A stretch of DNA of 64,000 bases from Bacteroidetes bacterium RIFCSPLOWO2_12_FULL_37_12 (GTDB lineage Bacteria > Bacteroidota > Bacteroidia > 2-12-FULL-37-12), in contig MEPC01000020.1 of assembly GCA_001769655.1 (NCBI GenBank), positions 217,922-281,921 of the forward strand, given 5' to 3'. The notes beneath the pieces were generated by a model. That model did not search any database. It had not been told where the DNA came from and saw nothing but the letters and a program-made list of their open reading frames with translations. Made by a program: the position numbers and the translations under genes. Below, in pieces: positions 10,272 through 40,388 of this stretch (positions are counted from its first letter, which is position 1; every line of letters begins with the position of its first letter).

Positions 10272-11957
10272 TTACTTTCTCCTCAAAATCTTTTTTAAAA
10301 CAATCTTCTCAACCCAACTATGAAAAGGATAAATCAAAATCGCAACGCCGGCATTGAAAATTAATTTCCAGACAGGCGCTCCTCCCGTCCATTGCTCTAC
10401 ATAAGGGTCAATCAGCACAATGATAAATTCAAACCATAATAAAATGGATATGAAAATAATGGCTTCAATCAATTTCCGTCCTACATGAATTCGTACCAGT
10501 AAAATGATGGCTGTAAACAATATGACAAAAGCGATGGCAATGCCCGAATACTGAAGAATATTTCGACGGGTTTTTTCTTCCATGGAAATTCTCAATGATT
10601 CTGCTTCCACGCTTTTTTTAATGATTTCTGCTTTTTCATATTCATATTGCGTCTCCAAACGGGCTTGCTTTTTTTCATTATCCTTATTGTAAATACTATC
10701 GCGATATAAAATATAATTCTGATAATTTTCGAATGCCTGTTTGTAATAGTTGCCTCCATTCAGATTATTCAGATTCTTTTCTCCTTTTATTTTAAAAATT
10801 TCAGCGAGGTGTTGAAAGTTATCTTTGCATAGATCCTTACTGCCGATTTCTTTAGCAATGGATAAACTCTTTAAACAAAACTCTTCCGCTTTTTCCAACT
10901 CTTTTTGATTCAAATAAACTAATCCAATATTCCCATACTTATAAGAGATACTTTCTTTGTGACCGATTTCTTCTGCAATCTTCAATCCCTTGTTCAGATA
11001 TTCAAGAGCCAAGGGGTATTTTACTGTCATTGCATAATGATTATTTCCTGCTTTTACAGCGGAGTCACCTTGAAAAACAAAAACTAATCCTATACTACCC
11101 AGCAAAGTTGTGGCGCTATATTGATTTCCCATTTCTTCCGAAATTTTCAATGCTTTCAAAAAATAATTTAATGCCATTGTTAATTTACCTTGCGAAACAT
11201 AGTTCTCTCCCATATTATTAAGGATGATAGCAATTCCATAATTATTTCCGGTTTTCTCAACAAGTTCTAATGATTTGGAATAATAATTAAGGGCAAGCGG
11301 CAAATTTTCCTGCATAGTATAAACATTTCCGATATTACTGTAAATGGATGCGATCAAATCATTATCTTTCAAGACAACGGAAATTTTTAACGCCTGAAAA
11401 TAATAATCCAGCGCTTTTGGATAATTTCCCTGTTTAACCAATACCGCTCCTATGTTGCCCTGAAATCTTGCCATCTTTTGTTTGTCTCCGATTTCCTTAG
11501 ATATTTTTAATGCTTTCTGGAAGTAATTCAGCCCTTTGGTCATGTTCCCTTGCTCTATATAAATAACTCCTATATTCCCGGTTGCCGCGGCTATACCACT
11601 GTTATCAAATAACTGTTCGTAAATTTTTAATGATTGAAATTGAAAAAAAAGCGCAGAATCATAGTTACCTTTTAATCTATAGAATATTCCAAGATTGCTG
11701 TAAATATTTCCCAGCCCTATTAGCCAACGGGCTTTTAGTGCCAAAGCAAGGGCTTGCTTTCCTAATAGGATAGAAGTGTCGGGATTTTTGAACCGAAATG
11801 AAGAGCCGATTGTATTCAGTATATCTGCTTTTTCAGTATCTATACGGGAAATTTTTAATCTGGAAAAAAGGGAATCAATAGTGTCAGCGTTTGAGAAAGT
11901 TGGTAGATTAGGAGAAAATAGTATGCAGAGTAGGAAAATAATCGAATAATTTCTCAT
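10272..11957 (-). CDS. Periplasmic TPR-repeat protein with a coiled coil and the conserved C-terminal 3-TM module (FEF…DPY…GGAPVWK…P-x-H), with no kinase or output domain
   Basis: Signal peptide, more than 8 TPR-like repeats. The C-terminal ~70 aa align with the C-termini of the ORFs at 38700, 16261, 26171 and 31052. Confidence 0.75.
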   Translation of the reverse strand: MRNYSIIFLLCILFSPNLPTFSNADTIDSLFSRLKISRIDTEKADILNTIGSSFRFKNPDTSILLGKQALALALKARWLIGLGNIYSNLGIFYRLKGNYDSALFFQFQSLKIYEQLFDNSGIAAATGNIGVIYIEQGNMTKGLNYFQKALKISKEIGDKQKMARFQGNIGAVLVKQGNYPKALDYYFQALKISVVLKDNDLIASIYSNIGNVYTMQENLPLALNYYSKSLELVEKTGNNYGIAIILNNMGENYVSQGKLTMALNYFLKALKISEEMGNQYSATTLLGSIGLVFVFQGDSAVKAGNNHYAMTVKYPLALEYLNKGLKIAEEIGHKESISYKYGNIGLVYLNQKELEKAEEFCLKSLSIAKEIGSKDLCKDNFQHLAEIFKIKGEKNLNNLNGGNYYKQAFENYQNYILYRDSIYNKDNEKKQARLETQYEYEKAEIIKKSVEAESLRISMEEKTRRNILQYSGIAIAFVILFTAIILLVRIHVGRKLIEAIIFISILLWFEFIIVLIDPYVEQWTGGAPVWKLIFNAGVAILIYPFHSWVEKIVLKKILRRK

Positions 11958-12188
11958 GTACGTTCGGTTTAATTCAGGGGGTTGGTTTTTATAGGATTTC
12001 AGAGCAAAGTTATTGAAAATATATTCAAAGATTTATGTTAAAAGCATTTCGCAATAGAAAAGAAAGTTCTCTTATAAACAGATACCTGAAACTTTACTAT
12101 TTTGACAGTATGTAAGAAGTGATATTTTATCTTTAAATTTGCACGAAACAAAACTATTCCCAAGATTTAACCAAACGCAAATAAGTCC

Positions 12189-13454
12189 TTGCACACCAAC
12201 AAATATCTCGACATGGACCTCCTCCGCTTCACCACTGCAGGAAGCGTAGATGATGGCAAAAGCACGTTAATTGGGCGGTTGCTTTTTGATAGCAAATCCA
12301 TTTTTGAAGACCAACTTGAAGCCGTTGAATCCTCCAGCAAACGAAAAGGATTAGATCACATAGATTTATCCCTGCTGACAGATGGATTAAAGGCAGAACG
12401 CGAACAGGGAATCACCATTGATGTGGCTTACCGGTATTTTGCAACACCCAAACGTAAATTTATTATCGCCGATACTCCTGGGCATATTCAATATACCCGT
12501 AACATGGTGACAGGAGCATCAACCGCTAATCTGGCTATAATTTTAATTGATGCACGGAAAGGTGTTCTTGAACAGACCTGCCGTCATTCGTATATCGCTT
12601 CCCTGTTAAAAATCCCTCATCTGGTGGTCTGCATAAACAAAATGGATCTGGTGGACTACAAAGAAGAAGTATTTGAAAAAATTGTGCACGATTTTGATAA
12701 TTTTTCTTCCAAACTGGAAGTGGTTGATATTAATTATATTCCTATCAGTGCGTTGAAAGGGGACAATGTGGTTGACAAAAGTAAAAACATGGATTGGTAT
12801 CATGGTCAAACCTTGTTGTATTTACTGGAACATATCCATATCGGAAGCGACTATAATCATATTGATTGCCGGTTTCCGGTGCAGTATGTGATACGCCCTC
12901 ATTCAGATGAACATCATGATTACCGGGGGTATGCTGGAAGAATTGCCGGCGGAGTGTTTAGAGTAGCAGACAAAGTAAAAGTTTTACCCGGTGGCTTTAC
13001 TTCAACCATCAAAACCATTGATTTTTTCAACCAGTCATTAAAAGAAGCATACCCTCCCATGTCAGTGACACTAACCCTTTCCGATGACATTGATATCAGC
13101 AGAGGAGACATTATTGTAAGGGAAAATAACGTACCGCAGTTGGGGCAGGACATTGACATGATGATGTGCTGGTTTAATCCCAAGAAAATGAATCCCGCCG
13201 GCAAATATTTTTTGAGACATAACACCAAAGAAGGAAAGTGCATGGTAAAAGAAGTGCGTTATAAAGTGGATATCAATACCATGCAACGCAACGAAACGGA
13301 TAAAGACGTTTGCATGAATGACATTGCCAGGGTGTTAATCAGAACCACTTTCCCCTTGTGTTTTGACAGTTACCGGAAAAACCGTATCACTGGCAGTGTC
13401 ATACTTATGGATGAAGGAACCAATGAGACGGTGGCGGCTGGGATGATTGTTTGA
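12189..13454 (+). CDS. cysN: Sulfate adenylyltransferase subunit 1 (CysN GTPase)
   Basis: G1 box 'GSVDDGKSTLIGRLL', 'DTPGH', 'NKMD', 421 aa. Confidence 0.9.
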   Translation: MHTNKYLDMDLLRFTTAGSVDDGKSTLIGRLLFDSKSIFEDQLEAVESSSKRKGLDHIDLSLLTDGLKAEREQGITIDVAYRYFATPKRKFIIADTPGHIQYTRNMVTGASTANLAIILIDARKGVLEQTCRHSYIASLLKIPHLVVCINKMDLVDYKEEVFEKIVHDFDNFSSKLEVVDINYIPISALKGDNVVDKSKNMDWYHGQTLLYLLEHIHIGSDYNHIDCRFPVQYVIRPHSDEHHDYRGYAGRIAGGVFRVADKVKVLPGGFTSTIKTIDFFNQSLKEAYPPMSVTLTLSDDIDISRGDIIVRENNVPQLGQDIDMMMCWFNPKKMNPAGKYFLRHNTKEGKCMVKEVRYKVDINTMQRNETDKDVCMNDIARVLIRTTFPLCFDSYRKNRITGSVILMDEGTNETVAAGMIV

Positions 13455-13666: not shown

Positions 13667-13700
13667 TTTTTAATTCTTAAACCTGAGCGGGTATTTATAG

Positions 13701-14996: not shown

Positions 14997-15008
14997 TTCC
15001 TCAGAACC

Positions 15009-16260: not shown

Positions 16261-19044
16261 TTGAAAATGTCTTTCAGAATAAACCATACACTGCATATAT
16301 TTTTATTCTTTTTTATATTTATTCTTGTTCTTGTTCTCTCCCCCGCTTACGCCCAAAACTACCGGATAGAAAAATACTCAGTGGAAGCAGGCATGGCACA
16401 GGCATCGGTGGTTGACATAGAACAGGACAAAGATGGAAATATTTGGTTTGCCACTTCGGGCGGCGCTACTTATTATAATGGTAAGACATTTGAAACCGTC
16501 ACTACCGGTCATGGCTTGTTAAATAACAGGGTGCGGGAAATTTTTTGCGACAAAAAAGGAAATATCTGGATAGGTACCGGTGAGGGAATTTCAGTCATCC
16601 ATTACAATTCATTTCTTCATAGTGACACATTATCGGTTAAGAATTATACCAAGGCACAAGGGTTACCCGATAACCGGATTTCCAGCATAATACAAGACAC
16701 AAAAAACCGGATATGGATTACTACAACTGGAGGTGTGGCACGGTATCTATATAACGTGTTGGACACTTCCTGCACAAAATGTTTCAGTACGTTTACCGTA
16801 GAAAGCGGATTATTTACCAATCAAATCAATTCAATCTACGAGGATTTAAAAGGACAATTATGGCTCTGTTCACAAAAAGGATTAGCCATGTTCAATCCGG
16901 ATGATCTTTCCGGGAAAATTCTTAATCCCTTGATTTTAAATACAAGTAATGGATTGAAAGAAAACACGGTGAGAACAATAGCGCAGGGTAAAGACGGGAT
17001 TTATTGGATAGGTCTGTTGGGTTCATTAATGAGAATGAAATTAACGGATGATGATAAAAAATATTTCACATTGGAAGATGGTGTAAATTATTTTCCTGTT
17101 TTATTCGGAAATCAGATTCAACGCGCTACGGTTGACCCTAATGGAGATGTCTGGATTGGGGCACACGGTGCGCTAAGAATCTCCGAAGAGGGCAGTGATT
17201 TTATCAGCATGGATAATGGATTGGGAAAGGGTTCCGTAAGAGCAGTTTTTCATGACAGAGAAGGCAATACCTGGTTCGGAACATCTGCAGAAGGATCCAG
17301 CAAATTCAGAAGTAAAATGTTTTCGGTTTATAGCACGGATCATGGACTTATCTGCAATGATTTAAGAGCTATACTGGAAGACCACCGGGGATGGGTATGG
17401 ATGGCTGGTGCCACCGGACTGTCACTGTTAAATCCAGCGGAAAAAAATTATCAGAAACCATACAAAAAGCTTTTCCGGAATTATTCTACCCGCGAAGGAA
17501 TAAATTATACGGGCTCACTCTGGTCGTTGGCAGAAGATAAAGAAGGCAATATCTGGATAGGTGCCGGCGGTGGAATTTCTGTGGTAAATGCAAAAGAATT
17601 TGAAAAAGGAAAAGTGGTATTTGACAATTTTTTGGAAGCAGATGGCTTAAAGAATCCCGCCACCATGGCTTTATATCAGGATAAGAAAGGTAGAATCTGG
17701 GCGGGAACTTTAGGAGGGATTGCGTTATTTCAGGGAAAACTCTTTGAATCGAAAACAGTTCGGACGTCTCAACATAAAAAACATCCCTCATTCAATTTTT
17801 ATGGTCCTGAAAAAGGCATTCCTTTTTCACAGATACTTGATATTAAGGAAGACGCACGCGGAAATTTATGGATTGGTTCCGGCGGTGGATTACTCCGGCT
17901 CAAAGAGTTGACGGATGACACCATTGAAGTGGAAATTATTGGAACGCAACAAGGGTTAAAGAATATTCACATTTTATCAATTACGGAAGATAAAGTTGGA
18001 AATCTTTGGCTGGGAACTGCCGGAGGAGTTACTAAATTAAAAGTGATTCGCAACGAACCACTCGAAGTGAGTGTCACTAACTATACTGTAAAGGACGGAC
18101 TGAGTTCAGATACTCCGTACTTGCTGTTGATTGACAGCAAAGGGGATTTGTGGGTGGGAACCAACCGCGGAGTTGACCGTTTTTACATACGACAGGGAGA
18201 ATTTAAAAAAATCAAATCTTACGACAAAGACCAAGGATTTTCGGGTATTGAATGTAATCACAATGCCGGCTGGATGGACCGGAACGGGAACCTGTGGTTT
18301 GGGACGATGGGGGGCGCCATTTATTATAATGGAAGGGAAGATAAACCGAACCTGACGGAGCCGCTTGTAAAAATTTCAGAGTTAAAATTATTTTATGATA
18401 AAATAAATCCAGTTAATTTTGAAAAAAAAGAAACTGCTTATAGTGATTCCTCCTCTTCCCTTTTATTCAATTACAATCAAAATCACCTGACATTTGAATA
18501 TATCGGCGTAAGTTTAAGCCATCCGGATAAGGTAACCTATCAATATATGTTAAGAGGATTTGATAATGGCTGGAGTCCGGTGACACGCGAAAACGATGCT
18601 ACTTATTCAAATATACCACCCGGCAACTATGTTTTTATGGTAAAGGCGTGCAACGAGGAAGGAATCTGGAACCGTAAACCGGTTGAAATATCGTTTACCA
18701 TAAAAAAGCAATATTGGGAAACGGGATGGTTTTACACATTACAGGTTTTATTTTTTGCCGTTCTTATCGGAACTACATTTTATTTAAACCGCTCCAACAC
18801 CCAAACGCGTATTGCCACGACGCTGATTTTTGTCACGTTGTTTGTCAGTTTTGAATATGTAGAGGAAACGGTGGAGCCCTATCTGATGAATTTCACCGGC
18901 GGCGCTCCGCTTTTTAAAGTCATAACCAATTTGATTCTCGCATCCATTCTTGTTCCGGTGGAGCATCGTATCCGTAAATTTCTTGCGGGATTAAGTAAGG
19001 GGAAAGAGGAGGGGGAGATTGAGAATACGGTAGTTAGTGACTAA
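16261..19044 (+). CDS. Periplasmic Reg_prop (two-component regulator propeller) + Y_Y_Y domain protein. It ends in the conserved 3-TM module instead of histidine-kinase, receiver or AraC domains.
   Basis: Signal peptide. Many 'DxxGNIWIGT' propeller repeats. Y_Y_Y region 'TYQYMLRGFDNGWSP…ATYSNIPPGNYVFMVKA'. C-terminus 'WETGWFY…FEYVEETVEPYLMNFTGGAPLFKV…VPVEH'. Confidence 0.8.
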   Translation: MKMSFRINHTLHIFLFFFIFILVLVLSPAYAQNYRIEKYSVEAGMAQASVVDIEQDKDGNIWFATSGGATYYNGKTFETVTTGHGLLNNRVREIFCDKKGNIWIGTGEGISVIHYNSFLHSDTLSVKNYTKAQGLPDNRISSIIQDTKNRIWITTTGGVARYLYNVLDTSCTKCFSTFTVESGLFTNQINSIYEDLKGQLWLCSQKGLAMFNPDDLSGKILNPLILNTSNGLKENTVRTIAQGKDGIYWIGLLGSLMRMKLTDDDKKYFTLEDGVNYFPVLFGNQIQRATVDPNGDVWIGAHGALRISEEGSDFISMDNGLGKGSVRAVFHDREGNTWFGTSAEGSSKFRSKMFSVYSTDHGLICNDLRAILEDHRGWVWMAGATGLSLLNPAEKNYQKPYKKLFRNYSTREGINYTGSLWSLAEDKEGNIWIGAGGGISVVNAKEFEKGKVVFDNFLEADGLKNPATMALYQDKKGRIWAGTLGGIALFQGKLFESKTVRTSQHKKHPSFNFYGPEKGIPFSQILDIKEDARGNLWIGSGGGLLRLKELTDDTIEVEIIGTQQGLKNIHILSITEDKVGNLWLGTAGGVTKLKVIRNEPLEVSVTNYTVKDGLSSDTPYLLLIDSKGDLWVGTNRGVDRFYIRQGEFKKIKSYDKDQGFSGIECNHNAGWMDRNGNLWFGTMGGAIYYNGREDKPNLTEPLVKISELKLFYDKINPVNFEKKETAYSDSSSSLLFNYNQNHLTFEYIGVSLSHPDKVTYQYMLRGFDNGWSPVTRENDATYSNIPPGNYVFMVKACNEEGIWNRKPVEISFTIKKQYWETGWFYTLQVLFFAVLIGTTFYLNRSNTQTRIATTLIFVTLFVSFEYVEETVEPYLMNFTGGAPLFKVITNLILASILVPVEHRIRKFLAGLSKGKEEGEIENTVVSD

Positions 19045-24182: not shown

Positions 24183-24462
24183 TTTAATTGTATATCCAAA
24201 ATATTTGACTTACCTTTACAATTGCAAAAATTAAATTTGTTTTCTAAATTAAATTATTACTTTCAATACAAAAATTAAATTTTCACTCAAGAATGAGGGA
24301 ACTATTTGCATCACCTTTACCTACCACACACTTCATCTTGAGGATAAAATGTAAAACATATCCACCACTTTTTGTAACTCCACAAGTGTGATAAATGAAT
24401 TGATTTAAATACTCATGCACTCTTAATTACACAATTAATGACGCATATATATTATATCAAAA

Positions 24463-25371: not shown

Positions 25372-25372
25372 A

Positions 25373-26140: not shown

Positions 26141-26170
26141 TAAAACTAAGTTCAATTAAAAAAAGTTTTT

Positions 26171-28849
26171 TCATTTTTTTTCACCCAGGTACTTACTAAA
26201 TATTTTTTCTAATGGTAATAGAATTATAGCAAGAATTAAATTCATGAACACTTTAAAAATAGGAATTCCACCGCCAATATTGTCAAAATAGGGTTCCAGC
26301 AAAGTTTTTGTAAATTCAAAAACGACAAATATGCTTATGAAAATTAATACGGTTTTATATTTTTTATGTGATGAAGAACTATGGCCAATAATAAAAGACA
26401 CGCTTAGCAATGAAAGAAATAATAATAATTCAGACGAATAAAACCACCACGTTTCCCAAAAAGGAGGTTTTATCCTAAAATTAAACATTACAGCTTTTTC
26501 GTTCCAAATCCCATCATTATTACAAGCCCTTACATTAAATTGATATCTGCCTGGTTTCAAATTAGAATAGGTGGTTTTATTTTCAGAAGTAATGGGTGAC
26601 CAGTCCTGGTCAGAACCATCCAATTTAAATTGATATAAAACCTTTTCAGGAATACATAAACTTACACCAATAAATTCAAAAGTCAAATGATTTTTTTCAA
26701 TGGGAAATTCAAACTTTTGAGAATTATTTTCCTTTCCTGCCAAATATTTTCTTAAATCTACATTTTGGAAATGCAATTTAACACTATTTAAACTAATTAC
26801 CGGTTCTACCTGGTTTTTCTTATCATATTCCCTATCATAAACCGTAACCCCTTTGGAAGTTCCAAACCATATTTTTCCATCATGATCCTTAAATACAGCA
26901 TTGGGTTTACATTCTATACCAAAAAATCCTTCAGCAAGTCCAAAAGAAGTAAATTCTATTTTATTATTCTTAATAAATAGTGGATAATTAAATTTAATTA
27001 TCCCTTTAACAGTCCCAATCCATAAATTACTGTCATTATCAAAAAGCAGTGAATTAATATTCAGATTTCCTAAACCATCTTTGCTGCTGAATAATTTATT
27101 ATTAACAGTTTCTATTTTACTCTTATTATTAGGAATCATTAACAGACCGTGACCATACACCCCTGCCCAGATATTCCTACGACCATCTTCAATCAATGCA
27201 TAAACAACATTATTGTGAAAATTCTGTCCTAATCTAATATTTACGGGCGTATATTTTTTAGAAAAAGTATCATATTTCATACATGCAATTCCGAAATTTG
27301 AGCCAATCCATATATTCTTGTTCTTGTCTTCGAAGGTAGAATATTGTCTATTAAATACACCGAATTTATTATAATTAAGAATTGAATCAACACGATTAAA
27401 TGGAGGTGCACTTTTATCAAAAATAATCCTACTTAACCCATTTGAAGTAGAACACCATATATCATTCCGTTTACTTATAAGAATGTTTAATATTTTATTA
27501 CTGGACAGTTCAAGGTTTTGAGTTATATTCGGTTTAGAAATAATGTCTTTACCAGATTGATATACTATTTGTAATCCGGCTCCATAAGTAGCAAAAAACA
27601 ATTTATTAGATGAATCTTTTTCAATATCGTAAATAACATTATTAGTTATATTTGGAATTTTTATATATTGAAAAGATATTGAGTCATTTGGGTGCTCCCG
27701 GTTATTTAATATGTAAACACCTTTTTCTGTACCAAGAATAACCCTTGATAGATGATCTTCGTTGATGCATTGAACTTGTTCATCTTTCAAGCCATTTTTT
27801 TTGGAATAATTAATAAATGTAAAACCACTGAATTTATTTAATCCTCCTCCGAAAGAACCAAACCATAAATTTCCTTCCCTGTCTTTTATACCCGCCCAAA
27901 AACTTGTGGCTGAAAGTCCATTGACAGGTAGAAAGTGCAACAATTTTGAAAATGAGTTAGCGCCGTCTTTTTCGATATCATTAAAAAAAACCCCATTATT
28001 AGTAGCAAACCAAAGGTTGTTCCTTTCGTCTTCCATAGTAACCCGTATTTTGGATTTAGACAGAGCTTTGGGTTGAAAGATGGTAGCGCTAAATTTATTC
28101 CCAGTTTCAAAACGCACGGAGGAAAACCTGTAAACGCCATCATCGGTACTTACCCAAATATTTTTTTTACTGTCTTCAAAAATGTTCCAAATTGTACCTC
28201 GGTTATTTCTATTATTAAAATCTGATGCCCGGTAGAGATTTTGAAGATGGAAGATTTCTAGCTCACCATTAAAATGGCCAATCCAAATATTTGAGTCAGA
28301 ATCGGCATGCAAAGAAAAAACTTTCTCTGACAATAATCCCTTCGCCTTTGTCATACACTGAAATGAATTTTCTTTAGATGGATTATAAATCCATATTGCC
28401 TCATGAGGTCCCGCTGTTCCAAACCATATTTCGTGATTAATATTTTCAATAATAGATGTTATCCGGTTCGGTACAATTGCCCACTTCGAGCTGATATTAT
28501 GAAAACTTGTTTTTTCATTTATGAAACCAATTCTTTTTTGACAAATCCCTTTACCAGTGCCAAGCCATAATTGATTATTACTATCTTCAAAAATTGAATA
28601 AATGATATTAGAACTTAGCCCATCTGAGGTAGTAAAATTTTCAAAAACATTGCCATCATATCGGGTCAATCCACCGGCAGTACCTATCCACAGATAACCA
28701 GAATTGTCCTGGCAAATTGCATACACTTCTGAGTGCGGCAATCCTTCCTCAATAGAAATCGTTTTAAATTGATAGGTTTGGGAAAATGAATGAGTTGCGT
28801 AAAACAGAAAGCCAACAATAGAAGGAAAAAAACATTTCATTTTTTTCAA
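26171..28849 (-). CDS. Periplasmic Reg_prop + Y_Y_Y protein ending in the conserved 3-TM module (paralog of 16261 and 31052)
   Basis: Signal peptide, propeller repeats, 'LYQFKLDGSDQDWSP…TTYSNLKPGRYQFNVRA', C-terminus 'WETWWFY…FEFTKTLLEPYFDNIGGGIPIFKV…LPLEK'. Confidence 0.8.
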   Translation of the reverse strand: MKKMKCFFPSIVGFLFYATHSFSQTYQFKTISIEEGLPHSEVYAICQDNSGYLWIGTAGGLTRYDGNVFENFTTSDGLSSNIIYSIFEDSNNQLWLGTGKGICQKRIGFINEKTSFHNISSKWAIVPNRITSIIENINHEIWFGTAGPHEAIWIYNPSKENSFQCMTKAKGLLSEKVFSLHADSDSNIWIGHFNGELEIFHLQNLYRASDFNNRNNRGTIWNIFEDSKKNIWVSTDDGVYRFSSVRFETGNKFSATIFQPKALSKSKIRVTMEDERNNLWFATNNGVFFNDIEKDGANSFSKLLHFLPVNGLSATSFWAGIKDREGNLWFGSFGGGLNKFSGFTFINYSKKNGLKDEQVQCINEDHLSRVILGTEKGVYILNNREHPNDSISFQYIKIPNITNNVIYDIEKDSSNKLFFATYGAGLQIVYQSGKDIISKPNITQNLELSSNKILNILISKRNDIWCSTSNGLSRIIFDKSAPPFNRVDSILNYNKFGVFNRQYSTFEDKNKNIWIGSNFGIACMKYDTFSKKYTPVNIRLGQNFHNNVVYALIEDGRRNIWAGVYGHGLLMIPNNKSKIETVNNKLFSSKDGLGNLNINSLLFDNDSNLWIGTVKGIIKFNYPLFIKNNKIEFTSFGLAEGFFGIECKPNAVFKDHDGKIWFGTSKGVTVYDREYDKKNQVEPVISLNSVKLHFQNVDLRKYLAGKENNSQKFEFPIEKNHLTFEFIGVSLCIPEKVLYQFKLDGSDQDWSPITSENKTTYSNLKPGRYQFNVRACNNDGIWNEKAVMFNFRIKPPFWETWWFYSSELLLFLSLLSVSFIIGHSSSSHKKYKTVLIFISIFVVFEFTKTLLEPYFDNIGGGIPIFKVFMNLILAIILLPLEKIFSKYLGEKK

Positions 28850-31051: not shown

Positions 31052-33778
31052 TCATCCACTCTCCTTCTTCCCTTCCAAATATTTTCTTATGAATTTCTCT
31101 AAGGGAAACAAAATCACCGCCAGAATTAAATTAATCAACACTTTAAAAAGGGGCGCTCCACCTACCACTAAAACAAAATAGGGTTCCAGTAATGTTTGCG
31201 CAAATTCAAATAAAATAAAAATGCAAACAAATATCAAAATGGTTGCTACCCGTGTATTGGTTTTCGAATGACCCACTTTGAAAGAAGCACCCAGCAAAAC
31301 CACTAAAAATGAAATTTGTAAGGAATAAAACCACCAGGTTTCCCAGTATGGAGGGGAAATAATAAATGAAAAAGTAGTGGGGGTTTTATTCCATACGCCA
31401 TCGTTATTGGATGCCCTCACTTGAAACGAATAATTGCCGGGTTCCAGTGACGTATAGGTTGCTGTGTTTATTAGCGTCACCGGCGCCCAGTTCTTATCAT
31501 AACCCTTTAGCATGAATTGATATTTTACTTTTTGTGGTATTGCCAAACTGATGCCGATAAAATCAAAGGTGAGATGGTTTAGTGTATAGGGTAATCGTAA
31601 ATCGCCCGGTAATCCGGTTTCAGGTTTATTAAATGTGGAATAATCTGAAAACTTAAACGGGTTAAAGAATATCCTGATATTTTGAATGTGCGTTCTGGGT
31701 TCTTGTAAATTTAATTTATCATAAACTGGATTATAAATCATCACACCTTTATTTGTACCAAAATACAACAAACCATTTTTATCGGTACACACCGCATTCA
31801 GATTGCAATCAACGCCGGTAAATCCTTCCCACAATCCATACGTACGGACAATTTTTTTCCTTGAAAAATAATATTGATTCATTTCAATCTTGTTTATCCC
31901 ATTGTTGGTCCCCACCCATAAATTTCCATCCGCATCGAAAATCATGGACTCAATCATGTCATCCGCTAAACCATCTTCCGTCGTAATCCTATCTTTGATT
32001 TTTATAAGATTATTTATGACCTGAACCATAAAAATACCTTCGCCATAAGAACCTAAAATCAGATTATTGTACTGACCCGGTAACAGATTATTAAAGCGAT
32101 TAACTTTTATATCCAGGTTATTGGTTGAATAAAGTTCAAATTCAACTCCTCCGTTTTTAGAAGGAAGTGAAGAATTTAATCGTGCGAAGCCGGTTGGCGT
32201 TGTCACCCAAATTGTATTTTTATTGTCTGCTGTCATATCAAAAACTCTTGGACTTTTTAATCCGGTTCTCCGGATATACAACTTCGGAGAATGTTGTTTG
32301 AGAAATGAATCTTCCACTAAACAAATTCCCCCATACGTGCATATCCAGAGTTTATGCTGAGGGTCTCTGTAGAATCCAGTGACATTATTATGCGGAAGTC
32401 CTTCATTTTCTGTAAAATGTCTTAGAACTTTCAGTGTTTTCATTTTTTTATCCTGGTAATAAAACTGCCATGCACCTCCTCCCACTATTCCCGCCCAAAC
32501 CGTTTCACCGTCATTAAAAAGCGACAATACAGATTTTCCGGGCAACCCATAAGTGCTGTCAATGACAAAGATTGGTTTTTGCGTATTCAAATATCCATTG
32601 TTAGACATTTCATATATGAAAATTTTTCCACCGTCCTCACCTACCCATACGTAATTATTTTTGTCAACGGTTATTGACGATATCTGACTCTTGTTTAATC
32701 CCTGGTTTATGTTGATAGAAGAAAATGCCTCATTTCTTAATTTGTTTAATCCCTCCCCAAAAGTTCCTATCCAATAGTTTTTTTCATGATCAGCGTAAAA
32801 AGCCCAGATACTGTTGGCGCTTAATCCCTCTTCGGTAGAAAATCTTTTTTCCCAAATGCTATCTGTGTTAAAAATATTTTTAGGATACATTATTTTATAA
32901 ACCCCAGCATTGGTTCCACACCACATTTCTTTTCCTGTATTGAAAAATGTCCGAAAACTTTTATTTTTTATTTCAGGGGTTTCCAAATTTTTTATCCGAA
33001 ACGTATAATTGGTTTCTTTCTGTGATGGCATTATATTTATACCTTTATCAGAGCCGAACCAGATATTGTGAAATTCGTCTTCTTCAATCACCCATATTTT
33101 ATTACTTGTCAATCCATCTTCAATTCCAAAATGCCTTATTCCGTATTTATTACTTTCTTTCTCGTAATGTAAATAATAAATTCCGCTTAAATAAGTTCCT
33201 AACCAAATGTCTTGATTCTGGTCATCAAAAATGGCATGGATATGATTATTTCTTTCTTCTTTATCCAATTTAATTGTATTGAAAATAAAACGATTCATTA
33301 TTAAATCTTGATAATTAATAACGGATAATCCATTGCTTGTACCGATTAGCAGATTTCCGTTTTTTGCCTGGCGGATACGGGGAACTTTGACAGATGGGAG
33401 ACCTTCTTTTGTTGAAAATGTTTGAAAAATTTTATCCCCTGTATGTTGCGCATATCCCTTTTTAATGACACTTACTCCACCGACGTCTGTACCGAACCAT
33501 AAATTTCCAACAGTATCTTCACAGATAGTGTAAACTACGTTGTCACCCAACCCATCTTTCAAAGTGTAATTCACAAAATTTTTCCCATCGTATTTACTGA
33601 CTCCGCCGCCGGTTCCAATCCATAAGAAACCATTTTTGTCCTGACAAATAGCAAAAATGTTCGATTCATTTAATCCTTCATTTACTGAGTAAACAGAAAA
33701 GGGAACTGTTTGGGCGGAAGCAAGAATAGAATAAAAGGTATAAATAATAAAAACAAAAATTAGTTCCAAATGTTTCAT
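31052..33778 (-). CDS. Periplasmic Reg_prop + Y_Y_Y protein ending in the conserved 3-TM module (paralog)
   Basis: Signal peptide, propeller repeats, 'KYQFMLKGYDKNWAP…ATYTSLEPGNYSFQVRA', C-terminus 'WETWWFY…FEFAQTLLEPYFVLVVGGAPLFKV…FPLEK'. Confidence 0.8.
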   Translation of the reverse strand: MKHLELIFVFIIYTFYSILASAQTVPFSVYSVNEGLNESNIFAICQDKNGFLWIGTGGGVSKYDGKNFVNYTLKDGLGDNVVYTICEDTVGNLWFGTDVGGVSVIKKGYAQHTGDKIFQTFSTKEGLPSVKVPRIRQAKNGNLLIGTSNGLSVINYQDLIMNRFIFNTIKLDKEERNNHIHAIFDDQNQDIWLGTYLSGIYYLHYEKESNKYGIRHFGIEDGLTSNKIWVIEEDEFHNIWFGSDKGINIMPSQKETNYTFRIKNLETPEIKNKSFRTFFNTGKEMWCGTNAGVYKIMYPKNIFNTDSIWEKRFSTEEGLSANSIWAFYADHEKNYWIGTFGEGLNKLRNEAFSSININQGLNKSQISSITVDKNNYVWVGEDGGKIFIYEMSNNGYLNTQKPIFVIDSTYGLPGKSVLSLFNDGETVWAGIVGGGAWQFYYQDKKMKTLKVLRHFTENEGLPHNNVTGFYRDPQHKLWICTYGGICLVEDSFLKQHSPKLYIRRTGLKSPRVFDMTADNKNTIWVTTPTGFARLNSSLPSKNGGVEFELYSTNNLDIKVNRFNNLLPGQYNNLILGSYGEGIFMVQVINNLIKIKDRITTEDGLADDMIESMIFDADGNLWVGTNNGINKIEMNQYYFSRKKIVRTYGLWEGFTGVDCNLNAVCTDKNGLLYFGTNKGVMIYNPVYDKLNLQEPRTHIQNIRIFFNPFKFSDYSTFNKPETGLPGDLRLPYTLNHLTFDFIGISLAIPQKVKYQFMLKGYDKNWAPVTLINTATYTSLEPGNYSFQVRASNNDGVWNKTPTTFSFIISPPYWETWWFYSLQISFLVVLLGASFKVGHSKTNTRVATILIFVCIFILFEFAQTLLEPYFVLVVGGAPLFKVLINLILAVILFPLEKFIRKYLEGKKESG

Positions 33779-37214: not shown

Positions 37215-37245
37215 GGGTTTTAAAAACAATAAAAATTCATTTCTC

Positions 37246-38541
37246 CTATATAGCGTTTCCTGTTATATTAAATTTCCTCATTACCTCCGCCGGCGTCACG
37301 CACCCGTAACCGCTTTCATAAAAATATTCCAATAGTTTTCTGTATGCCTGGGGATAACCTTTAAAAGTATATCCCGAAAAAAAATTATTGTGCCACAAAA
37401 CAGAGAGCACGCAGTTGTACTTGTTTTTTTCAAAAAATGCAATCACGGTGTCGGCAATCTGAGAGGGTTTTTCTTTCATATAGGAATGTAGAGTCCTGTC
37501 CATTACCTGTAGTGGCATTTCAACAAATGTATAAGGTTCTTTTGTGGCAAAATTATAGGGTTTGAAAGGAAGTCCGTAGCTATTGCGGAAACCAATCATT
37601 TCAGAAAAACCAACGCTGGTATCTATGGGAATCCCTGAGATTTCGAGCTCGTTGAATGCTTGCGGTAAACGGAATTTAAGATAATGATACCGGTTGCTAT
37701 TTGGAACAAATCCAAGTTTTTGAATTTCCAACGCAAAGGAATCAGAAGATATGCTTTTATGAATTCCATTTTCACAATTATTTTTTCTGACAAGATTAAT
37801 GGCATCCCTTATACTTTTATCATGAATGTTATAATCGGCATTTGATTCTCTGTTGTTAATTTTCCCTTTATTCACCAGCCAGTAAAACGTTGATTTAAAA
37901 TCAAATTTGCTTTCTGTTTTCATAATCTTGTCAACATTCAGCCAGTAGGGTTTCATAAGAAGGATTTTTATAAAGAGTTTAAAGAAAAATCCAACATTTC
38001 CGGAACGTAATGCTGAACTTGCTTCTTCCTTCAATCCCTCATTTACAAGGTCAATGTCATGCGATAGAAATAGTTGAGATTTTACAGGATTATCTTTACA
38101 ACCACTTAATTTTGGATGTGTAGCTAATTCATCAAAGCATTGCTGTACCAGATTTTCCTGTACGTTGTTAAATTTTTTTTGATAACTGTCTGCGTATCTG
38201 AATCTCCCCAGGCCGTCGGTTTCATTACAATGATATTCCTGACAGCAGTTCATCATGTAAAATGCGCTGGCTAACAGGTCGGTAACACCGGTATAAGTTA
38301 CTATGCGGCAGGATTTGAAAAAATGTTCTGTGTGAATAAATAATTTATTTCCCAGCTTGGAATAAAATTCTGAAGCGACAGGAATATCAGAGTCATCGCT
38401 CGCTGTGACATTAAGAGTGTTTTCATTTTTTTGATTACAGAATGTTAATTCGATATTCTTATTCCGCGCAAATGCCTTTAACGTATAGATGACTGGTGCA
38501 GTAAAATTTTTTCCAGGTTCAATGTAAACAAGGGTAATCAT
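37246..38541 (-). CDS. Hypothetical protein, possibly polysaccharide-deacetylase-like. The ORF is listed to 38706; the likely start MITLVYIEP lies at 38541.
   Basis: 'LSHDIDL' and C-terminal '…FVEMPLQVMD' are weakly reminiscent of NodB-type esterases. I have low confidence in the function. Confidence 0.35.
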   Translation of the reverse strand: MITLVYIEPGKNFTAPVIYTLKAFARNKNIELTFCNQKNENTLNVTASDDSDIPVASEFYSKLGNKLFIHTEHFFKSCRIVTYTGVTDLLASAFYMMNCCQEYHCNETDGLGRFRYADSYQKKFNNVQENLVQQCFDELATHPKLSGCKDNPVKSQLFLSHDIDLVNEGLKEEASSALRSGNVGFFFKLFIKILLMKPYWLNVDKIMKTESKFDFKSTFYWLVNKGKINNRESNADYNIHDKSIRDAINLVRKNNCENGIHKSISSDSFALEIQKLGFVPNSNRYHYLKFRLPQAFNELEISGIPIDTSVGFSEMIGFRNSYGLPFKPYNFATKEPYTFVEMPLQVMDRTLHSYMKEKPSQIADTVIAFFEKNKYNCVLSVLWHNNFFSGYTFKGYPQAYRKLLEYFYESGYGCVTPAEVMRKFNITGNAI

Positions 38542-38597
38542 TTTAAGCCAAAAGTACGTTCTTTCGGGAAAAAATCCTACATATACATTACCTTTGC

Positions 38598-38690
38598 TCA
38601 TGCGAAAGGTATAAAGGTTAAGGGTATAAAGGTATAGATGTATAGGGTATAATGGTTTAACCCCTATACCCCTATACCCATTTTCTTTTA
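38598..38690. promoter_or_regulatory. Array of GGTATA(AAG) direct repeats followed by inverted CCCCTATACC × 2, centred on GGTTTAACC, in a divergent promoter region
   Basis: Read from the sequence. Similar GGGTATAAAG…TATGGTTTAA…GGTATA blocks occur at 53741–53812 and CCTATACCCTATACC occurs at 50827–50841. Confidence 0.6.
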
Positions 38691-38699
38691 GAATATAAA

Positions 38700-40388
38700 A
38701 TGACAAAACTTATTCCGGATTTTCTTCTGATTTTAGTTTCATCCGTTTTCTTTTGTGTCACTGCAGGAAATCGTGGTGACGATTCATTGAGAAGCATCAT
38801 ACAAAAAGAGAAAAATGACACGATAAAAATCAATCTTCTTAACCAACTGGCGAATAGTTTATTGATGAAAAATCCCGATTCCGGTCTTTTTCTATCTCAG
38901 CAAGCAATCACGCTATCCCAGCAGAAAAAATTTTACAGCGGCTTAGCCAATGGCTATGAGAACGCAGGGCTTTGTTTTGCTCAGAAAGGAGATTACAAGT
39001 CAGCGTATGATTTTTATGTGAAAGCCATTAACAGTCATGAAATACTGGGAAGTAAGACGGGATTAGCATCCTGCTTTTGTAACCTGGGCGACCTCTTCCT
39101 TGACCAGAGCGAGTATGCGCAAGCCATGAATTATTTTCTGAAAGCGTTGAAAATAAATAACCAAATCCTAGATAAAGTAAACATTTCAAAAATACTCGGA
39201 AACATGGGTATAACGTATTTCTATCAGGGTGAATTTCCAAAAGCGTTGAATTATTATTATCAGGCAATGAAAATAAACAAAGAGTTAGTGGAAAAAGCAA
39301 TGTTGGAAGGAAATACAAGCAAAATAAACAAATACAAAAATTTAATGGCGAAAAGCTATTCCAACATCGGAATTATTCATTACGAACAGGATGAATTTCA
39401 AAAAGCATTGGAATATTTTTACAAGGCACTTAAACTAAAAGAGGAAATCGGCGATAAATACGGAATAGCAGGAAATTTATGGAATCTCGGAAATTTATAT
39501 TCAGATAATAATGAGTTTGAAAAAGCTTTGGAGAATTACACGCGTGCGTTGAGAATTTCAGAGGAAATTGGCGATAAAATGGGTATGGCAAGCAATCTTG
39601 GAAATATCGCAAGCATTTATCAGAAACAAAACCAGGTTGAAAAAATGCTGGAATATTATCAGATGTCCCTGAAAATGCAGGAGGAAATAGGAGATAAAAA
39701 TGGGGTGTGCGTAAATTTTGGACGTTTAGGAACTTATTATATGAATGCCGGGCAATTTAATCTGGCAGAAAAATATTTAAAGCGGGCGTTTTCGTTGAGT
39801 GACAGCATCGGCACATTGGGCAACACCCGCATCACGGCAGAACGCTTGAGTAATCTCTATTTAAGTTATGGACAAAAGGAATATAAAACGGGAAATTTCA
39901 AATCCTCAGCAGACCAGTTTCTTCTTTCACTCGAATATATTAAAAGAGCATTTTCGGCAAAAGATTCCTTAATTAATCAGGACAAAAGCAAAGAAATAGG
40001 ACGGCTTGAAGCAAAACATGAAATAGAAATCAAAGAGTTGGAAAGAAAAAGAGCTGAAACGGAACAGTTGAGAAAAAGTGAAGAGCAAACCGAGCGAAGG
40101 AATTTATTGCAATATTCGGGCATTTTCATTTTTATTCTTGCGCTTGGGCTTACGGCTTTGTTCACCGGAAAATTACGAGTCAGTATGAAACTTACCGAGG
40201 GAATAATCTTTTTTATGTTTTTATTATTTTTTGAATTTATTCTAGTGTTATTAGACCCCTACTCGGACAGAATTACACAAGGTATCCCTATTTATAAACT
40301 TTTATTTAATGCCATCATTGCGGCATTTATTTTTCCCGCACATGCTTACCTCGAAAAAATTATTATTAAAAGAATTCATGGGGGGTAA
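38700..40388 (+). CDS. Periplasmic TPR-repeat protein with a coiled coil and the conserved C-terminal 3-TM module (paralog of 10272–11957)
   Basis: Signal peptide, TPR repeats, C-terminus 'RRNLLQYSGIFIF…FEFILVLLDPYSDRITQGIPIYKLLFNA…FPAHAYLEK'. Confidence 0.75.
   Translation: MTKLIPDFLLILVSSVFFCVTAGNRGDDSLRSIIQKEKNDTIKINLLNQLANSLLMKNPDSGLFLSQQAITLSQQKKFYSGLANGYENAGLCFAQKGDYKSAYDFYVKAINSHEILGSKTGLASCFCNLGDLFLDQSEYAQAMNYFLKALKINNQILDKVNISKILGNMGITYFYQGEFPKALNYYYQAMKINKELVEKAMLEGNTSKINKYKNLMAKSYSNIGIIHYEQDEFQKALEYFYKALKLKEEIGDKYGIAGNLWNLGNLYSDNNEFEKALENYTRALRISEEIGDKMGMASNLGNIASIYQKQNQVEKMLEYYQMSLKMQEEIGDKNGVCVNFGRLGTYYMNAGQFNLAEKYLKRAFSLSDSIGTLGNTRITAERLSNLYLSYGQKEYKTGNFKSSADQFLLSLEYIKRAFSAKDSLINQDKSKEIGRLEAKHEIEIKELERKRAETEQLRKSEEQTERRNLLQYSGIFIFILALGLTALFTGKLRVSMKLTEGIIFFMFLLFFEFILVLLDPYSDRITQGIPIYKLLFNAIIAAFIFPAHAYLEKIIIKRIHGG

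What the first reader, a model, noticed from the sequence alone, without database searches (positions are those of the whole stretch)
10272..40388. Undescribed conserved C-terminal 3-TM module shared by five output-less periplasmic sensor-like proteins
Five large proteins have different periplasmic parts. Three have Reg_prop propeller + Y_Y_Y domains (16261–19044, 26171–28849, 31052–33778). Two are TPR + coiled-coil proteins (10272–11957, 38700–40388).

All five end in the same ~65-aa module. It runs TM helix, short basic loop, TM helix ending in F-E-F/Y, acidic loop with E/D-P-Y, then G-G-(A/I)-P-(L/I/V)-(F/W/Y)-K, a third TM helix ending in P-x-E/H, and a short basic tail.

The periplasmic parts of the Reg_prop/Y_Y_Y proteins resemble Bacteroidetes hybrid two-component sensors. 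Those sensors normally continue into HisKA/HATPase/REC/AraC domains. Here every cytoplasmic signalling domain is absent and is replaced by this module. The conserved charged residues inside helices (FEF, PxE) suggest a functional intramembrane unit rather than a simple anchor. It could be a partner-docking, ion-conducting or proteolytically processed transducer.
Basis: seen in the sequence. Interest (0 to 1): 0.85.

Follow-up and report, generated by a model that had tools for sequence, protein, structure and literature searches.

The report
Unannotated membrane hairpin ending output-less sensors
Five secreted, sensor-like proteins in this Bacteroidota genome end in the same highly conserved, unannotated pair of membrane helices where relatives carry a kinase or phosphatase, and this module defines a large family (about 1,700 sequence clusters) of unknown function found only in uncultured bacteria.

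Summary
All five ORFs exist. Three have Reg_prop + Y_Y_Y ectodomains and two have TPR + stalk ectodomains, and all end in a homologous membrane module. The similarity is not compositional: cross-class profile scores are 41-46 bits against at most 11.4 bits in 2000 shuffles, and hhalign gives 99.1% probability. The shared core is narrower than three TMs. TM1 is class-specific and inherited from ordinary one-TM sensors. The common unit is a hairpin of about 60 aa, TM2-tight turn-TM3: FEF...[DE]PY.E...GG.P..K...N...A....P.[HE]. The module matches no Pfam, NCBIfam, PADLOC or PDB entry and has no specific fold relative. An exhaustive search finds 1,670 clusters (50% identity). It is always C-terminal and never followed by a cytoplasmic domain. 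Some Flavobacteriales/Cytophagales-type MAGs carry dozens of copies, often in tandem arrays and sometimes fused head-to-tail. Paralogs in the same genomes carry the same ectodomains joined through one TM to SpoIIE/PP2C, and other paralogs to His_kinase or cyclase outputs. So the hairpin occupies the output position. Function is inferred only. My best guess is an intramembrane transmitter or docking module. A ligand-gated conductance and a non-signalling oligomerising anchor remain open.

The parts
10272..11957 (-). T1: TPR-type module protein (561 aa): signal peptide, TPR array, long stalk helix, TM1, hairpin. GenBank OFY70970, 'hypothetical protein'.
   Evidence: ORF; translation; TPR families only; exact match in the public collection.
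10275..10568 (-). T1 C-terminal module (aa 464-561). The cross-class hairpin TM2-turn-TM3 is aa 495-561 = 10275-10475.
   Evidence: Alignment A1; HMM hit E 4e-37; coordinates.
16267..19044 (+). R2: Reg_prop + Y_Y_Y-type module protein (925 aa from the ATG at 16267; the mechanical ORF starts at TTG 16261). GenBank OFY70975.
18712..19041 (+). R2 C-terminal module (aa 816-925); hairpin aa 848-925 = 18808-19041. Has the longest cytoplasmic tail of the five.
26171..28840 (-). R3: Reg_prop + Y_Y_Y-type module protein (889 aa from the ATG at 28840; the ORF extends to TTG 28849). GenBank OFY70981.
26174..26461 (-). R3 C-terminal module (aa 794-889); hairpin aa 827-889 = 26174-26362.
   Evidence: P0001 is this fragment.
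31052..33778 (-). R4: Reg_prop + Y_Y_Y-type module protein (908 aa). GenBank OFY70983. Its ectodomain is homologous to the periplasmic domains of Bacteroides hybrid two-component sensors.
   Evidence: PDB 4A2L E 1.4e-49 and 3V9F E 8.3e-47.
31055..31348 (-). R4 C-terminal module (aa 811-908); hairpin aa 843-908 = 31055-31252. AF2 model of this module: three helices (5-27, 32-62, 66-93), mean pLDDT 82.6.
38700..40388 (+). T5: TPR-type module protein (562 aa). GenBank OFY70987. AF2 full-length model: mean pLDDT 90.9, TPR superhelix 40-396, one continuous helix 400-489 (stalk running into TM1), and hairpin helices 496-526 and 530-561.
40095..40385 (+). T5 C-terminal module (aa 466-562); hairpin aa 497-562 = 40188-40385.
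   Evidence: P0006 is a fragment of it.

Best explanation
The five proteins are inner-membrane, periplasm-facing receptor-type proteins. In them the usual cytoplasmic output domain is replaced by a previously unannotated, autonomous membrane domain. Shown: a Sec-type signal peptide is followed by a known sensor ectodomain. This is either two Reg_prop beta-propellers + Y_Y_Y (as in Bacteroides hybrid two-component sensors) or a TPR superhelix whose last helix continues as a long stalk directly into TM1. TM1 is the class-specific sensor TM. After a basic cytoplasmic loop of about 6-10 residues comes the shared hairpin. TM2 carries the invariant FEF. It extends into an acidic periplasmic cap, [DE]-P-Y-x-E, then a tight G-G-x-P turn, then TM3 (K...N...A....P-x-[H/E]), then a short basic amphipathic tail in the cytoplasm. 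Inferred mechanism: ligand-induced movement of the ectodomain and stalk is passed through TM1 to the hairpin. The hairpin acts as an intramembrane transmitter. Its conserved polar stripe (E46, N71, K67, H/E82) and juxtamembrane tail dock the TM or juxtamembrane region of one or more partner proteins, or of other family members. Candidate partners include the single-pass PP2C (SpoIIE) sensor phosphatases that are enriched next to module genes. On this reading many different ectodomains (dozens per genome) feed into the cell through one common membrane-embedded adaptor. The descriptive part (a real, new, conserved domain in the output position) I hold at about 0.9. The confidence given below is for the docking/transmitter mechanism.
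For: The domain is real and conserved. It matches no known family or fold. The family is large: 1,670 clusters at E<=1e-3 and 656 at E<=1e-10. In the top 149 representatives, 115 are TPR-type, 31 are Reg_prop-type and 3 are fragments. The module is terminal, with a median of 3 residues after it, and every apparent exception is a tandem fusion. Charges fit the positive-inside rule: loop 1 +2.1/-0.9, turn +1.1/-2.4, tail +2.4/-1.1 per sequence. Fused units are separated by one extra signal-peptide-like TM. Both observations indicate an odd number of TMs with N-out, C-in. The same ectodomains joined by one TM to SpoIIE, and further paralogs with His_kinase or Guanylate_cyc outputs, occur in the same lineages, which places the hairpin in the output position. 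The stalk helix is continuous with TM1, as in signalling receptors. The hairpin is more conserved (48-60% identity) than the ectodomains (31-32%) among window paralogs. SpoIIE sensor genes are enriched at +-1-2 genes: 17/428 against 4/608 further away, odds ratio 6.2, p 4e-4. Two have 4-bp stop/start overlaps, and some have unrelated ectodomains, so this is not just tandem duplication. Tandem arrays (64 of 225 immediate neighbours are module genes, odds ratio 4.9) and natural 2-3-unit fusions suggest the units act side by side.
Against: No partner has been identified. About 85-90% of module genes have no SpoIIE or kinase neighbour, and no other conserved neighbour family exists in 75 + 5 loci. 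The SpoIIE enrichment rests on roughly four independent contexts in related MAGs. The conserved residues form essentially one stripe per helix, which mutual packing of TM2 and TM3 could explain without any partner. Coordinates of the models were not available and the coevolution analysis was too noisy (Meff 158), so no contact or interface could be tested. No experimental data exist for any member. All members come from uncultured organisms and are annotated as hypothetical or TPR repeat proteins.
Confidence: 0.4

Rival explanations
1. Self-contained ligand-gated conductance. Dimers or higher oligomers of the hairpin form an ion- or proton-conducting path that the ectodomain gates, so the output is a change in membrane potential or ion flux and no partner is needed.
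For: The polar and small residues form a continuous stripe through the membrane on both helices. On TM2 these are E34, E46, D53 and E57. On TM3 they are K67, N71, A75, H/E82 and E86. There is an acidic cap at the periplasmic mouth. No conserved partner gene lies nearby. Tandem fusions are compatible with hetero-oligomers. A terminal 2-TM hairpin with a short conserved loop and a basic tail is the layout of CorA- and MCU-type channels (from my own knowledge; an analogy only). The weak structural neighbours include ND4L/NuoK and MrpF, 3-TM subunits with membrane-embedded glutamates.
Against: No channel family is hit in Pfam or NCBIfam even at E<=10. The inter-helix turn is only about 3-4 residues in both AF2 models, so there is no re-entrant pore loop. 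The structural matches are non-significant (Foldseek E>=3.9). Dozens of different ligand-gated channels in one genome would be unprecedented. The same stripe is equally well explained by helix-helix packing.
Confidence: 0.15
2. Non-signalling anchor or oligomerisation device. On this reading the proteins are periplasmic binding or scaffold proteins, or decoy receptors that heterodimerise with full-length paralogous sensors. The hairpin is conserved only to insert and hold them stably in the inner membrane.
For: There is no cytoplasmic domain at all. TPR arrays are classical scaffolds. Full-length paralogs with the same ectodomains exist in the same genomes and sometimes next door. One conserved stripe per helix fits simple hairpin self-packing.
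Against: TM1 alone would anchor the protein, as it does in the paralogs. The hairpin is the most conserved part of the proteins, and all invariant columns lie in it. It has been combined with two unrelated ectodomain classes and kept 88-98% conservation at about a dozen positions across Flavobacteriales, Cytophagales-type (Microscillaceae) and Kapaibacterium MAGs. That degree of constraint is unusual for an anchor.
Confidence: 0.2
3. C-terminal sorting or processing signal. The G-G-x-P motif, TM3 and the basic tail are recognised and cleaved by an intramembrane or sortase-like enzyme, as for GlyGly-CTERM/rhombosortase or PEP-CTERM/exosortase. Alternatively the protein is a substrate of regulated intramembrane proteolysis.
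For: The tripartite layout (motif, hydrophobic helix, basic cluster) sits at the extreme C-terminus, with helix-breaking G-G-x-P and P80. The window is a polysaccharide locus, the usual home of exosortase systems.
Against: None of NCBIfam's models, which include its C-terminal sorting-signal families, matches the tails even at E<=10. No exosortase, rhombosortase or rhomboid was found among the window ORFs that were scanned. Two further TMs lie upstream, so cleavage would not release the protein. There is no cytoplasmic domain to liberate by intramembrane proteolysis. Conservation extends through TM2 (F45/E46/F47 at 97/98/91%) and along the whole of TM3, far beyond a sorting motif.
Confidence: 0.05

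Closest known systems
Bacteroides hybrid two-component system (HTCS) sensors, e.g. the periplasmic domains solved as PDB 4A2L/4A2M and 3V9F
   Same: The R-type proteins share the whole periplasmic architecture (Reg_prop propellers + Y_Y_Y) and the juxtamembrane W-rich motif plus TM1. Sequence homology runs end to end (E 1e-49 and 8e-47).
   Different: HTCS continue after one TM into HisKA/HATPase_c/REC/AraC. Here nothing cytoplasmic follows. A 60-aa membrane hairpin ends the protein.
Paralogous single-pass sensors in the same lineages: TPR-TM-SpoIIE, Reg_prop-Y_Y_Y-TM-(PAS)-SpoIIE, TPR-TM-His_kinase (LytS-type), Reg_prop-Y_Y_Y-His_kinase, and TPR-Guanylate_cyc
   Same: They have the same two ectodomain classes. 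The TPR and Reg_prop paralogs whose membrane regions were examined have the same stalk/TM1 layout. They occur in the same genomes and are sometimes adjacent or translationally coupled to module genes.
   Different: They have one TM followed by a recognised cytoplasmic output. The module HMM does not match them beyond TM1.
TPR-type Bacteroidota sensor kinases such as Porphyromonas FimS (NCBIfam NF053520)
   Same: The TPR array plus stalk of T1 and T5 align to the N-terminal half of the FimS model (E 2e-31 and 2e-35, far below the model's cut-off).
   Different: There is no kinase core. The score is about 110-120 bits against a cut-off of 600, so these proteins are not members of that family.
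Auxiliary membrane proteins that control kinases through TM contacts (YycH/YycI with WalK; PMC7355866, PMC5013275)
   Same: Both are extracytoplasmic domains anchored in the membrane with no cytoplasmic signalling domain. This is the functional precedent for the docking model.
   Different: There is no sequence or fold relationship. YycH and YycI have a single N-terminal TM and are encoded in the kinase operon. Here the anchor is a C-terminal 3-TM unit and usually no kinase or phosphatase is adjacent.
C-terminal sorting signals (GlyGly-CTERM, PEP-CTERM)
   Same: Both have a short motif, a hydrophobic helix and a basic cluster at the extreme C-terminus.
   Different: No model matches. Two extra TMs lie upstream. 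Conservation covers TM2 and all of TM3. No cognate sortase was seen in the window.
Small 3-TM subunits with membrane-embedded glutamates (complex I ND4L/NuoK, MrpF)
   Same: Both are up-down-up three-helix membrane bundles of about 90-100 aa with conserved acidic residues inside the bilayer. They are the best membrane-protein neighbours in the fold searches.
   Different: The matches are non-significant (Foldseek E 4-8, TM-score about 0.5, identity 9-15%). This is an analogy of shape only.

Membership tests
Bacteroides-type hybrid two-component system (HTCS) | Periplasmic Reg_prop beta-propellers followed by a Y_Y_Y domain | tested here: met
   Met for R2, R3 and R4. Pfam Reg_prop E 1e-52 to 1e-59 and Y_Y_Y E 1e-17; PDB 4A2L and 3V9F. 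Not applicable to T1 and T5.
Bacteroides-type hybrid two-component system (HTCS) | Single TM followed by HisKA + HATPase_c | tested here: not met
   No HisKA or HATPase_c hit at E<=0.1. The proteins end 3-25 residues after TM3.
Bacteroides-type hybrid two-component system (HTCS) | C-terminal receiver (REC) and AraC-type HTH | tested here: not met
   Absent from all five proteins.
Any curated protein family or domain (Pfam-A 2025, NCBIfam 20.0, PADLOC 2.0) | The hairpin or module scores above a family's threshold | tested here: not met
   Tails scanned alone at E<=10 give only scattered hits of 10-16 bits against cut-offs of 22-34 bits. NCBIfam gives none. PADLOC gives none.
Proteins with a solved structure | Sequence or fold similarity of the module to a PDB chain | tested here: not met
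C-terminal sorting signals (GlyGly-CTERM / PEP-CTERM type) | Match to a curated sorting-signal model | tested here: not met
   NCBIfam scan of the five hairpins at E<=10 gives no sorting-domain model.
C-terminal sorting signals (GlyGly-CTERM / PEP-CTERM type) | The signal's helix is the only membrane helix of the mature protein, so cleavage releases or re-anchors it | tested here: not met
   Two further TMs (TM1, TM2) precede it in all members.
C-terminal sorting signals (GlyGly-CTERM / PEP-CTERM type) | The cognate exosortase or rhombosortase is encoded in the genome or locus | tested here: inconclusive
   None was found among about 40 window ORFs scanned. The rest of the genome was not available.
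Pore-loop / 2-TM ion channels (KcsA/GluR0, CorA, MCU types) | Sequence match to the channel family | tested here: not met
   No Ion_trans_2, CorA, MCU or other channel family is hit at E<=10.
Pore-loop / 2-TM ion channels (KcsA/GluR0, CorA, MCU types) | Oligomer with a continuous pore | not testable with these tools
   Only monomer AF2 without coordinates was available.
Auxiliary TM regulators of sensor kinases (YycH/YycI-like concept) | Extracytoplasmic domain plus membrane anchor, with no cytoplasmic signalling domain | tested here: met
   This is an analogy of architecture only, with no homology.
Auxiliary TM regulators of sensor kinases (YycH/YycI-like concept) | Encoded in an operon with the regulated kinase or phosphatase | tested here: inconclusive
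   SpoIIE sensors are enriched 6-fold at +-1-2 genes (p 4e-4), with two 4-bp overlaps. However, only 10 of 225 immediate neighbours are SpoIIE sensors.

The most novel reading that the evidence does not exclude
The hairpin is a new class of signal-output module that works entirely within the membrane. It either docks dozens of different periplasmic receptors onto one shared, still unidentified membrane hub (an intramembrane analogue of chemoreceptors docking on CheA/CheW), or it forms receptor-gated ion or proton paths. If so, a whole branch of Bacteroidota uses a signalling route that domain-based censuses of two-component and one-component systems cannot see.
Probability: 0.3. Interest if true: 0.85.

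Novelty: new variant of a known kind. Interest (0 to 1): 0.6.

Why it matters
Censuses of bacterial signal transduction count proteins by their recognised output domains, so these receptors are invisible to them. They are deposited as 'hypothetical protein' or 'TPR repeat protein'. Yet single genomes encode at least 23-34 of them, and the family comprises about 1,700 clusters at 50% identity. The hairpin is the most constrained part of the proteins. It has been joined to two unrelated sensor ectodomains. One of these is the well-studied glycan-sensing module of Bacteroides hybrid two-component systems. Defining the hairpin as a domain family would re-annotate these proteins at once. It would also give a concrete handle for asking how a periplasmic signal can be passed on without any cytoplasmic domain, through a profile, invariant residues to mutate and candidate PP2C partners.

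Tried and rejected
1. Word-index protein searches with A1 and A2 returned only 7 and 15 short fragments, so they gave no names or domain architectures. The exhaustive HMM search was used instead.
2. The search for related loci with the diverse alignment A2 failed because no stretch was conserved enough. It was redone with class-specific alignments.
3. The afdb50 fold library was unavailable.
5. Apparent stand-alone module genes turned out not to be an independent family. P0164 and P0165 are TPR-type genes split by a premature stop or a scaffold gap. L080/L081 is a 115-aa remnant of a syntenic R-type gene.
6. Apparent cases of sequence after the module are all tandem fusions or short tails.
7. 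Mean-field coevolution on 298 module copies (Meff 158) was dominated by terminal and gap artefacts and was not used.
8. Model coordinates are not exposed, so no contacts could be measured.
9. A functional link to T9SS cargo was rejected as a general feature. Cargo genes show no positional enrichment around module genes (odds ratio 0.8, p 0.48), and none was found among the neighbours scanned at the five R-type loci from other metagenomes.
10. The sorting-signal, defence-system and channel-family readings were tested against libraries with negative results.
11. Literature searches for Reg_prop/Y_Y_Y proteins lacking kinase domains found nothing relevant.


Full report
OBSERVATION.

All five ORFs exist at the stated coordinates. 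For two of them the biologically likely starts are the ATGs at 16267 and 28840, and those exact products are deposited in GenBank. Pfam finds Reg_prop + Y_Y_Y in three proteins, called R2, R3 and R4 here, and only TPR families in two, called T1 and T5. No HisKA, HATPase, REC, HTH, GGDEF, SpoIIE or other cytoplasmic domain is found in any of them. All five begin with a signal-peptide-like segment.

A profile of these tails finds exactly five copies in the six-frame translation of the window (E 1e-36 to 1e-42; next best 0.05).

The similarity is not a matter of hydrophobic composition. A profile built only from the three Reg_prop tails scores the two TPR tails at 42-46 bits, against a maximum of 9.9 bits among 1000 composition-matched shuffles. 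The TM2-TM3 part alone scores 41-46 bits against at most 11.4 bits in 2000 shuffles. A profile-profile comparison of independent T-type and R-type alignments gives 99.1% probability, E 1.7e-18.

WHAT THE SHARED UNIT IS.

TM1 is not conserved between the two classes (10-19% identity). Each class has its own juxtamembrane motif: RRNxLQYSGI in the TPR type and [FY]WETWWFY in the Reg_prop type. The second motif also occurs in ordinary one-TM Reg_prop sensors. Most tblastn-confirmed metagenome matches to it covered only the TM1 end of the query, and SpoIIE paralogs carry PPFW.TWWFY followed by a single TM.

The unit common to both classes is therefore a hairpin of about 60 aa. Over 180 copies from the best 149 database representatives, conservation is extreme at particular positions:
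- F45/E46/F47: 97/98/91%
- [D/E]53: 97%
- P54: 95%
- G62: 88%
- P64: 98%
- K67: 90%
- N71: 98%
- A75: 97%
- P80: 97%
- position 82: H in the TPR type, E in the Reg_prop type

Among 60 full-length TPR-type proteins, every invariant column lies in the module. Among the window paralogs the hairpin is 48-60% identical while the ectodomains are 31-32% identical.

ANATOMY.

AF2 on the module, using a 44-sequence alignment, gives three helices (5-27, 32-62, 66-93) with mean pLDDT 82.6. The full-length T5 model (60 sequences, mean pLDDT 90.9, pTM 0.74) has these parts:
- a TPR superhelix at residues 40-396
- one continuous helix, 400-489, running from the last repeat through the stalk into TM1
- a 6-residue loop
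- the hairpin helices 496-526 and 530-561, joined by a 3-residue turn

The 'acidic loop' is therefore a helical extension of TM2, [DE]-P-Y-x-E, capped by a tight G-G-x-P turn.

Charges follow the positive-inside rule. Per sequence, loop 1 has +2.1/-0.9, the turn +1.1/-2.4, and the tail +2.4/-1.1. Natural fusions of two or three complete units always insert one extra signal-peptide-like hydrophobic segment between units. That arrangement only works if the module has an odd number of TMs. Together these observations give the topology: ectodomain in the periplasm, TM1 out-to-in, TM2 in-to-out, TM3 out-to-in, and a short basic tail in the cytoplasm.

The conserved residues form one stripe on each helix. 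On TM2 these are E34, F38, L42, E46, L49, D53 and E57. On TM3 they are K67, N71, A75, I78, H/E82 and E86.

IS IT KNOWN?

No family matches the module in any library searched:
- Pfam-A (2025 copy): no credible hit, even when the tails are scanned alone at E<=10.
- NCBIfam 20.0: no hit to any model, which include its C-terminal sorting-signal families.
- PADLOC: no hit on the hairpin.
- PDB sequences: none.
- Foldseek: nothing below E 3.9. The nearest membrane hits are the 3-TM subunits ND4L/NuoK and MrpF at TM-score about 0.5.

Full-text paper searches found nothing on such proteins. The window's five proteins are deposited as 'hypothetical protein' in Rifle-aquifer MAGs, Bacteroidetes bacterium RIFCSPLOWO2_12_FULL_37_12 and 02_FULL_36_8. 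Other members are named 'hypothetical protein' or 'TPR repeat protein'.

HOW WIDESPREAD?

An exhaustive HMMER search of 1.84 billion cluster representatives finds 1,670 proteins at E<=1e-3, 656 at E<=1e-10 and 17 at E<=1e-30. Of the best 149, 115 are TPR-type, 31 are Reg_prop-type and 3 are fragments. The module lies at the extreme C-terminus, with a median of 3 residues after it. Every case with more sequence after it is a tandem fusion or a short tail, and no output domain ever follows.

A pattern-limited scan of species-representative genomes returned 75 loci from 13 MAGs. These are Flavobacteriales, Vicingaceae and 'Bacteroidetes bacterium' MAGs, one Kapaibacterium, and one contig labelled Hyphomicrobiales. 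A Microscillaceae member also exists. Copy numbers are high. The fetched flanks alone hold at least 34 module genes in MAG B1T1B10 and at least 23 in another MAG. No cultured carrier was seen.

CONTEXT.

The commonest neighbour of a module gene is another module gene. This is so for 64 of 225 immediate neighbours (odds ratio 4.9 against positions 3-6 genes away, p 1.5e-13).

The paralogs without the module that cluster with these proteins include sensors with the same ectodomains, a single TM and a real output:
- TPR-TM-SpoIIE
- Reg_prop-Y_Y_Y-TM-(PAS)-SpoIIE
- TPR-TM-His_kinase
- Reg_prop-Y_Y_Y-His_kinase
- TPR-Guanylate_cyc

The hairpin therefore sits exactly where an output domain sits in the nearest relatives.

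SpoIIE sensor genes are enriched at +-1-2 genes (17/428 against 4/608; odds ratio 6.2, p 4e-4). Two have 4-bp stop/start overlaps (L025, L034). Some have an unrelated ectodomain, for example SBP_bac_3 in L034 and Reg_prop next to a TPR-type module gene in L006. This is a real but minority association, resting on about four independent contexts.

T9SS cargo genes flank all three R-type genes in the window. They show no positional enrichment in the 75 loci (p 0.48). None was found among the neighbours scanned at the five R-type loci from other metagenomes, where the neighbours include LptF/G, a prolyl oligopeptidase, a PHP-domain protein, DUF3078 and a PAS histidine kinase. No other neighbour family recurs.

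MECHANISM.

Shown: this is a receptor-type inner-membrane protein with a known ligand-binding ectodomain, a stalk continuous with TM1, and a strongly constrained terminal membrane hairpin in place of a cytoplasmic output.

Inferred, as my best guess (confidence about 0.4): the hairpin is an intramembrane transmitter or docking module. Movement of TM1 relative to the hairpin would alter a surface that is read by a membrane partner or by other family members. That surface would be formed by the E46/N71/K67 cluster in the outer leaflet and the E34/H82 cluster plus the amphipathic tail at the cytoplasmic face. The adjacent PP2C sensors are the only candidates the data point to. YycH/YycI with WalK is the functional precedent for control through TM contacts (PMC7355866, PMC5013275). 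The tandem arrays and head-to-tail fusions suggest that units act side by side.

The rivals are as follows:
- A self-contained receptor-gated conductance (0.15). The polar stripe and acidic cap favour it. The absence of a pore loop and of any channel homology counts against it.
- A non-signalling anchor, scaffold or decoy (0.2). This is hard to square with the hairpin being the most conserved part of the protein and being shared by two unrelated ectodomain classes, when TM1 alone anchors the paralogs.
- A C-terminal sorting or processing signal (0.05). No model matches, two TMs lie upstream, and there is nothing cytoplasmic to release.

VERDICT.

This is an unannotated, sizeable domain family that occupies the output position of two known sensor architectures. 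I class it as a new variant of a known kind, membrane receptor proteins. There is a realistic chance, about 0.3, that it represents a new intramembrane mode of signal output. Its function remains untested.

Noticed in passing
window 7930-13454: The sulfate-adenylyltransferase genes are split apart. A cysD-like gene (PAPS_reduct, 7930-8835) and a cysN-like gene (GTP_EFTU, 12189-13454) are separated by a BRO-N domain ORF (8886-9764), an unannotated 157-aa ORF (9788-10261) and the opposite-strand T1 gene. This looks like an insertion between two genes that are normally adjacent. An APS kinase (cysC, 53134-53727) lies in the polysaccharide locus, which hints at a sulfated polysaccharide.
   Followed up: partly
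window 19482-21851, 28926-31037, 33888-35729: Each of the three Reg_prop-type module genes is flanked by a secreted T9SS cargo gene: Reg_prop+PKD+Por_Secre_tail, PKD+CHU_C, and Kelch+PKD+CHU_C. The association does not hold in 80 related loci, so it may be specific to this genome or coincidental.
   Followed up: yes
window 22674-24182 (-): A 502-aa ORF with about 13 predicted TM segments has no Pfam or NCBIfam match. It sits between a methyltransferase and a GT2 glycosyltransferase. It may be a divergent Wzx/Wzy-type flippase or polymerase.
   Followed up: partly
P0008-P0045 (29 of the best 149 representatives); loci proteins of 1051-1540 aa: Two or three complete units (TPR ectodomain plus module) occur as natural head-to-tail fusions in one polypeptide. 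Each junction keeps the former signal peptide as an extra TM. No W or other read-through signature is seen at the six junctions printed, and the same fusions are seen with code 11 in genome loci, so they look real.
   Followed up: partly
L025 8654-12360; L034 8807-12129: The module gene's stop codon overlaps by 4 bp the start of a SpoIIE (PP2C) membrane sensor gene. In L034 that sensor has an unrelated SBP_bac_3 ectodomain. This suggests translational coupling and a possible functional pair.
   Followed up: partly
L080 4470-4868 and L081 4408-4806 versus L079 7634-10402: Downstream of an LptF/G permease gene, two metagenome contigs carry only a 115-aa ORF that is nearly identical to the C-terminus (TM1 remnant + hairpin + 40-aa tail) of the syntenic 922-aa R-type protein in L079. 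This is either an ectodomain-deletion remnant or a natural stand-alone hairpin.
   Followed up: partly
window 37246-38706 (-) and 38700-40388 (+): The mechanical ORF of a DUF7033/VimE-like deacetylase homologue overlaps the 5' end of T5 by 7 bp, head to head. Its TTG start is probably too far upstream, and the family match begins at residue 142.
   Followed up: no
window 24001-28000: This is the lowest G+C in the window (0.30 against 0.35-0.39 elsewhere). It covers a GT2 glycosyltransferase, an FkbM methyltransferase and the R3 gene, so it may be a recently acquired segment of the polysaccharide locus.
   Followed up: no
L005 (CAYVTD010000001.1): A 137-kb contig labelled 'uncultured Hyphomicrobiales' carries a typical TPR-type module gene (53% identity to T5's module). 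All other carriers are Bacteroidota-type, so this contig may be mis-binned.
   Followed up: no
L077 1-584 and 5239-7230: In one metagenome contig the split TPR-type module gene has nearby genes whose products hit Guanylate_cyc; the second also has TPR repeats. This adds a cyclase to the outputs combined with this TPR ectodomain. A HepT/NTP_transf_2 toxin-antitoxin pair sits in between.
   Followed up: no
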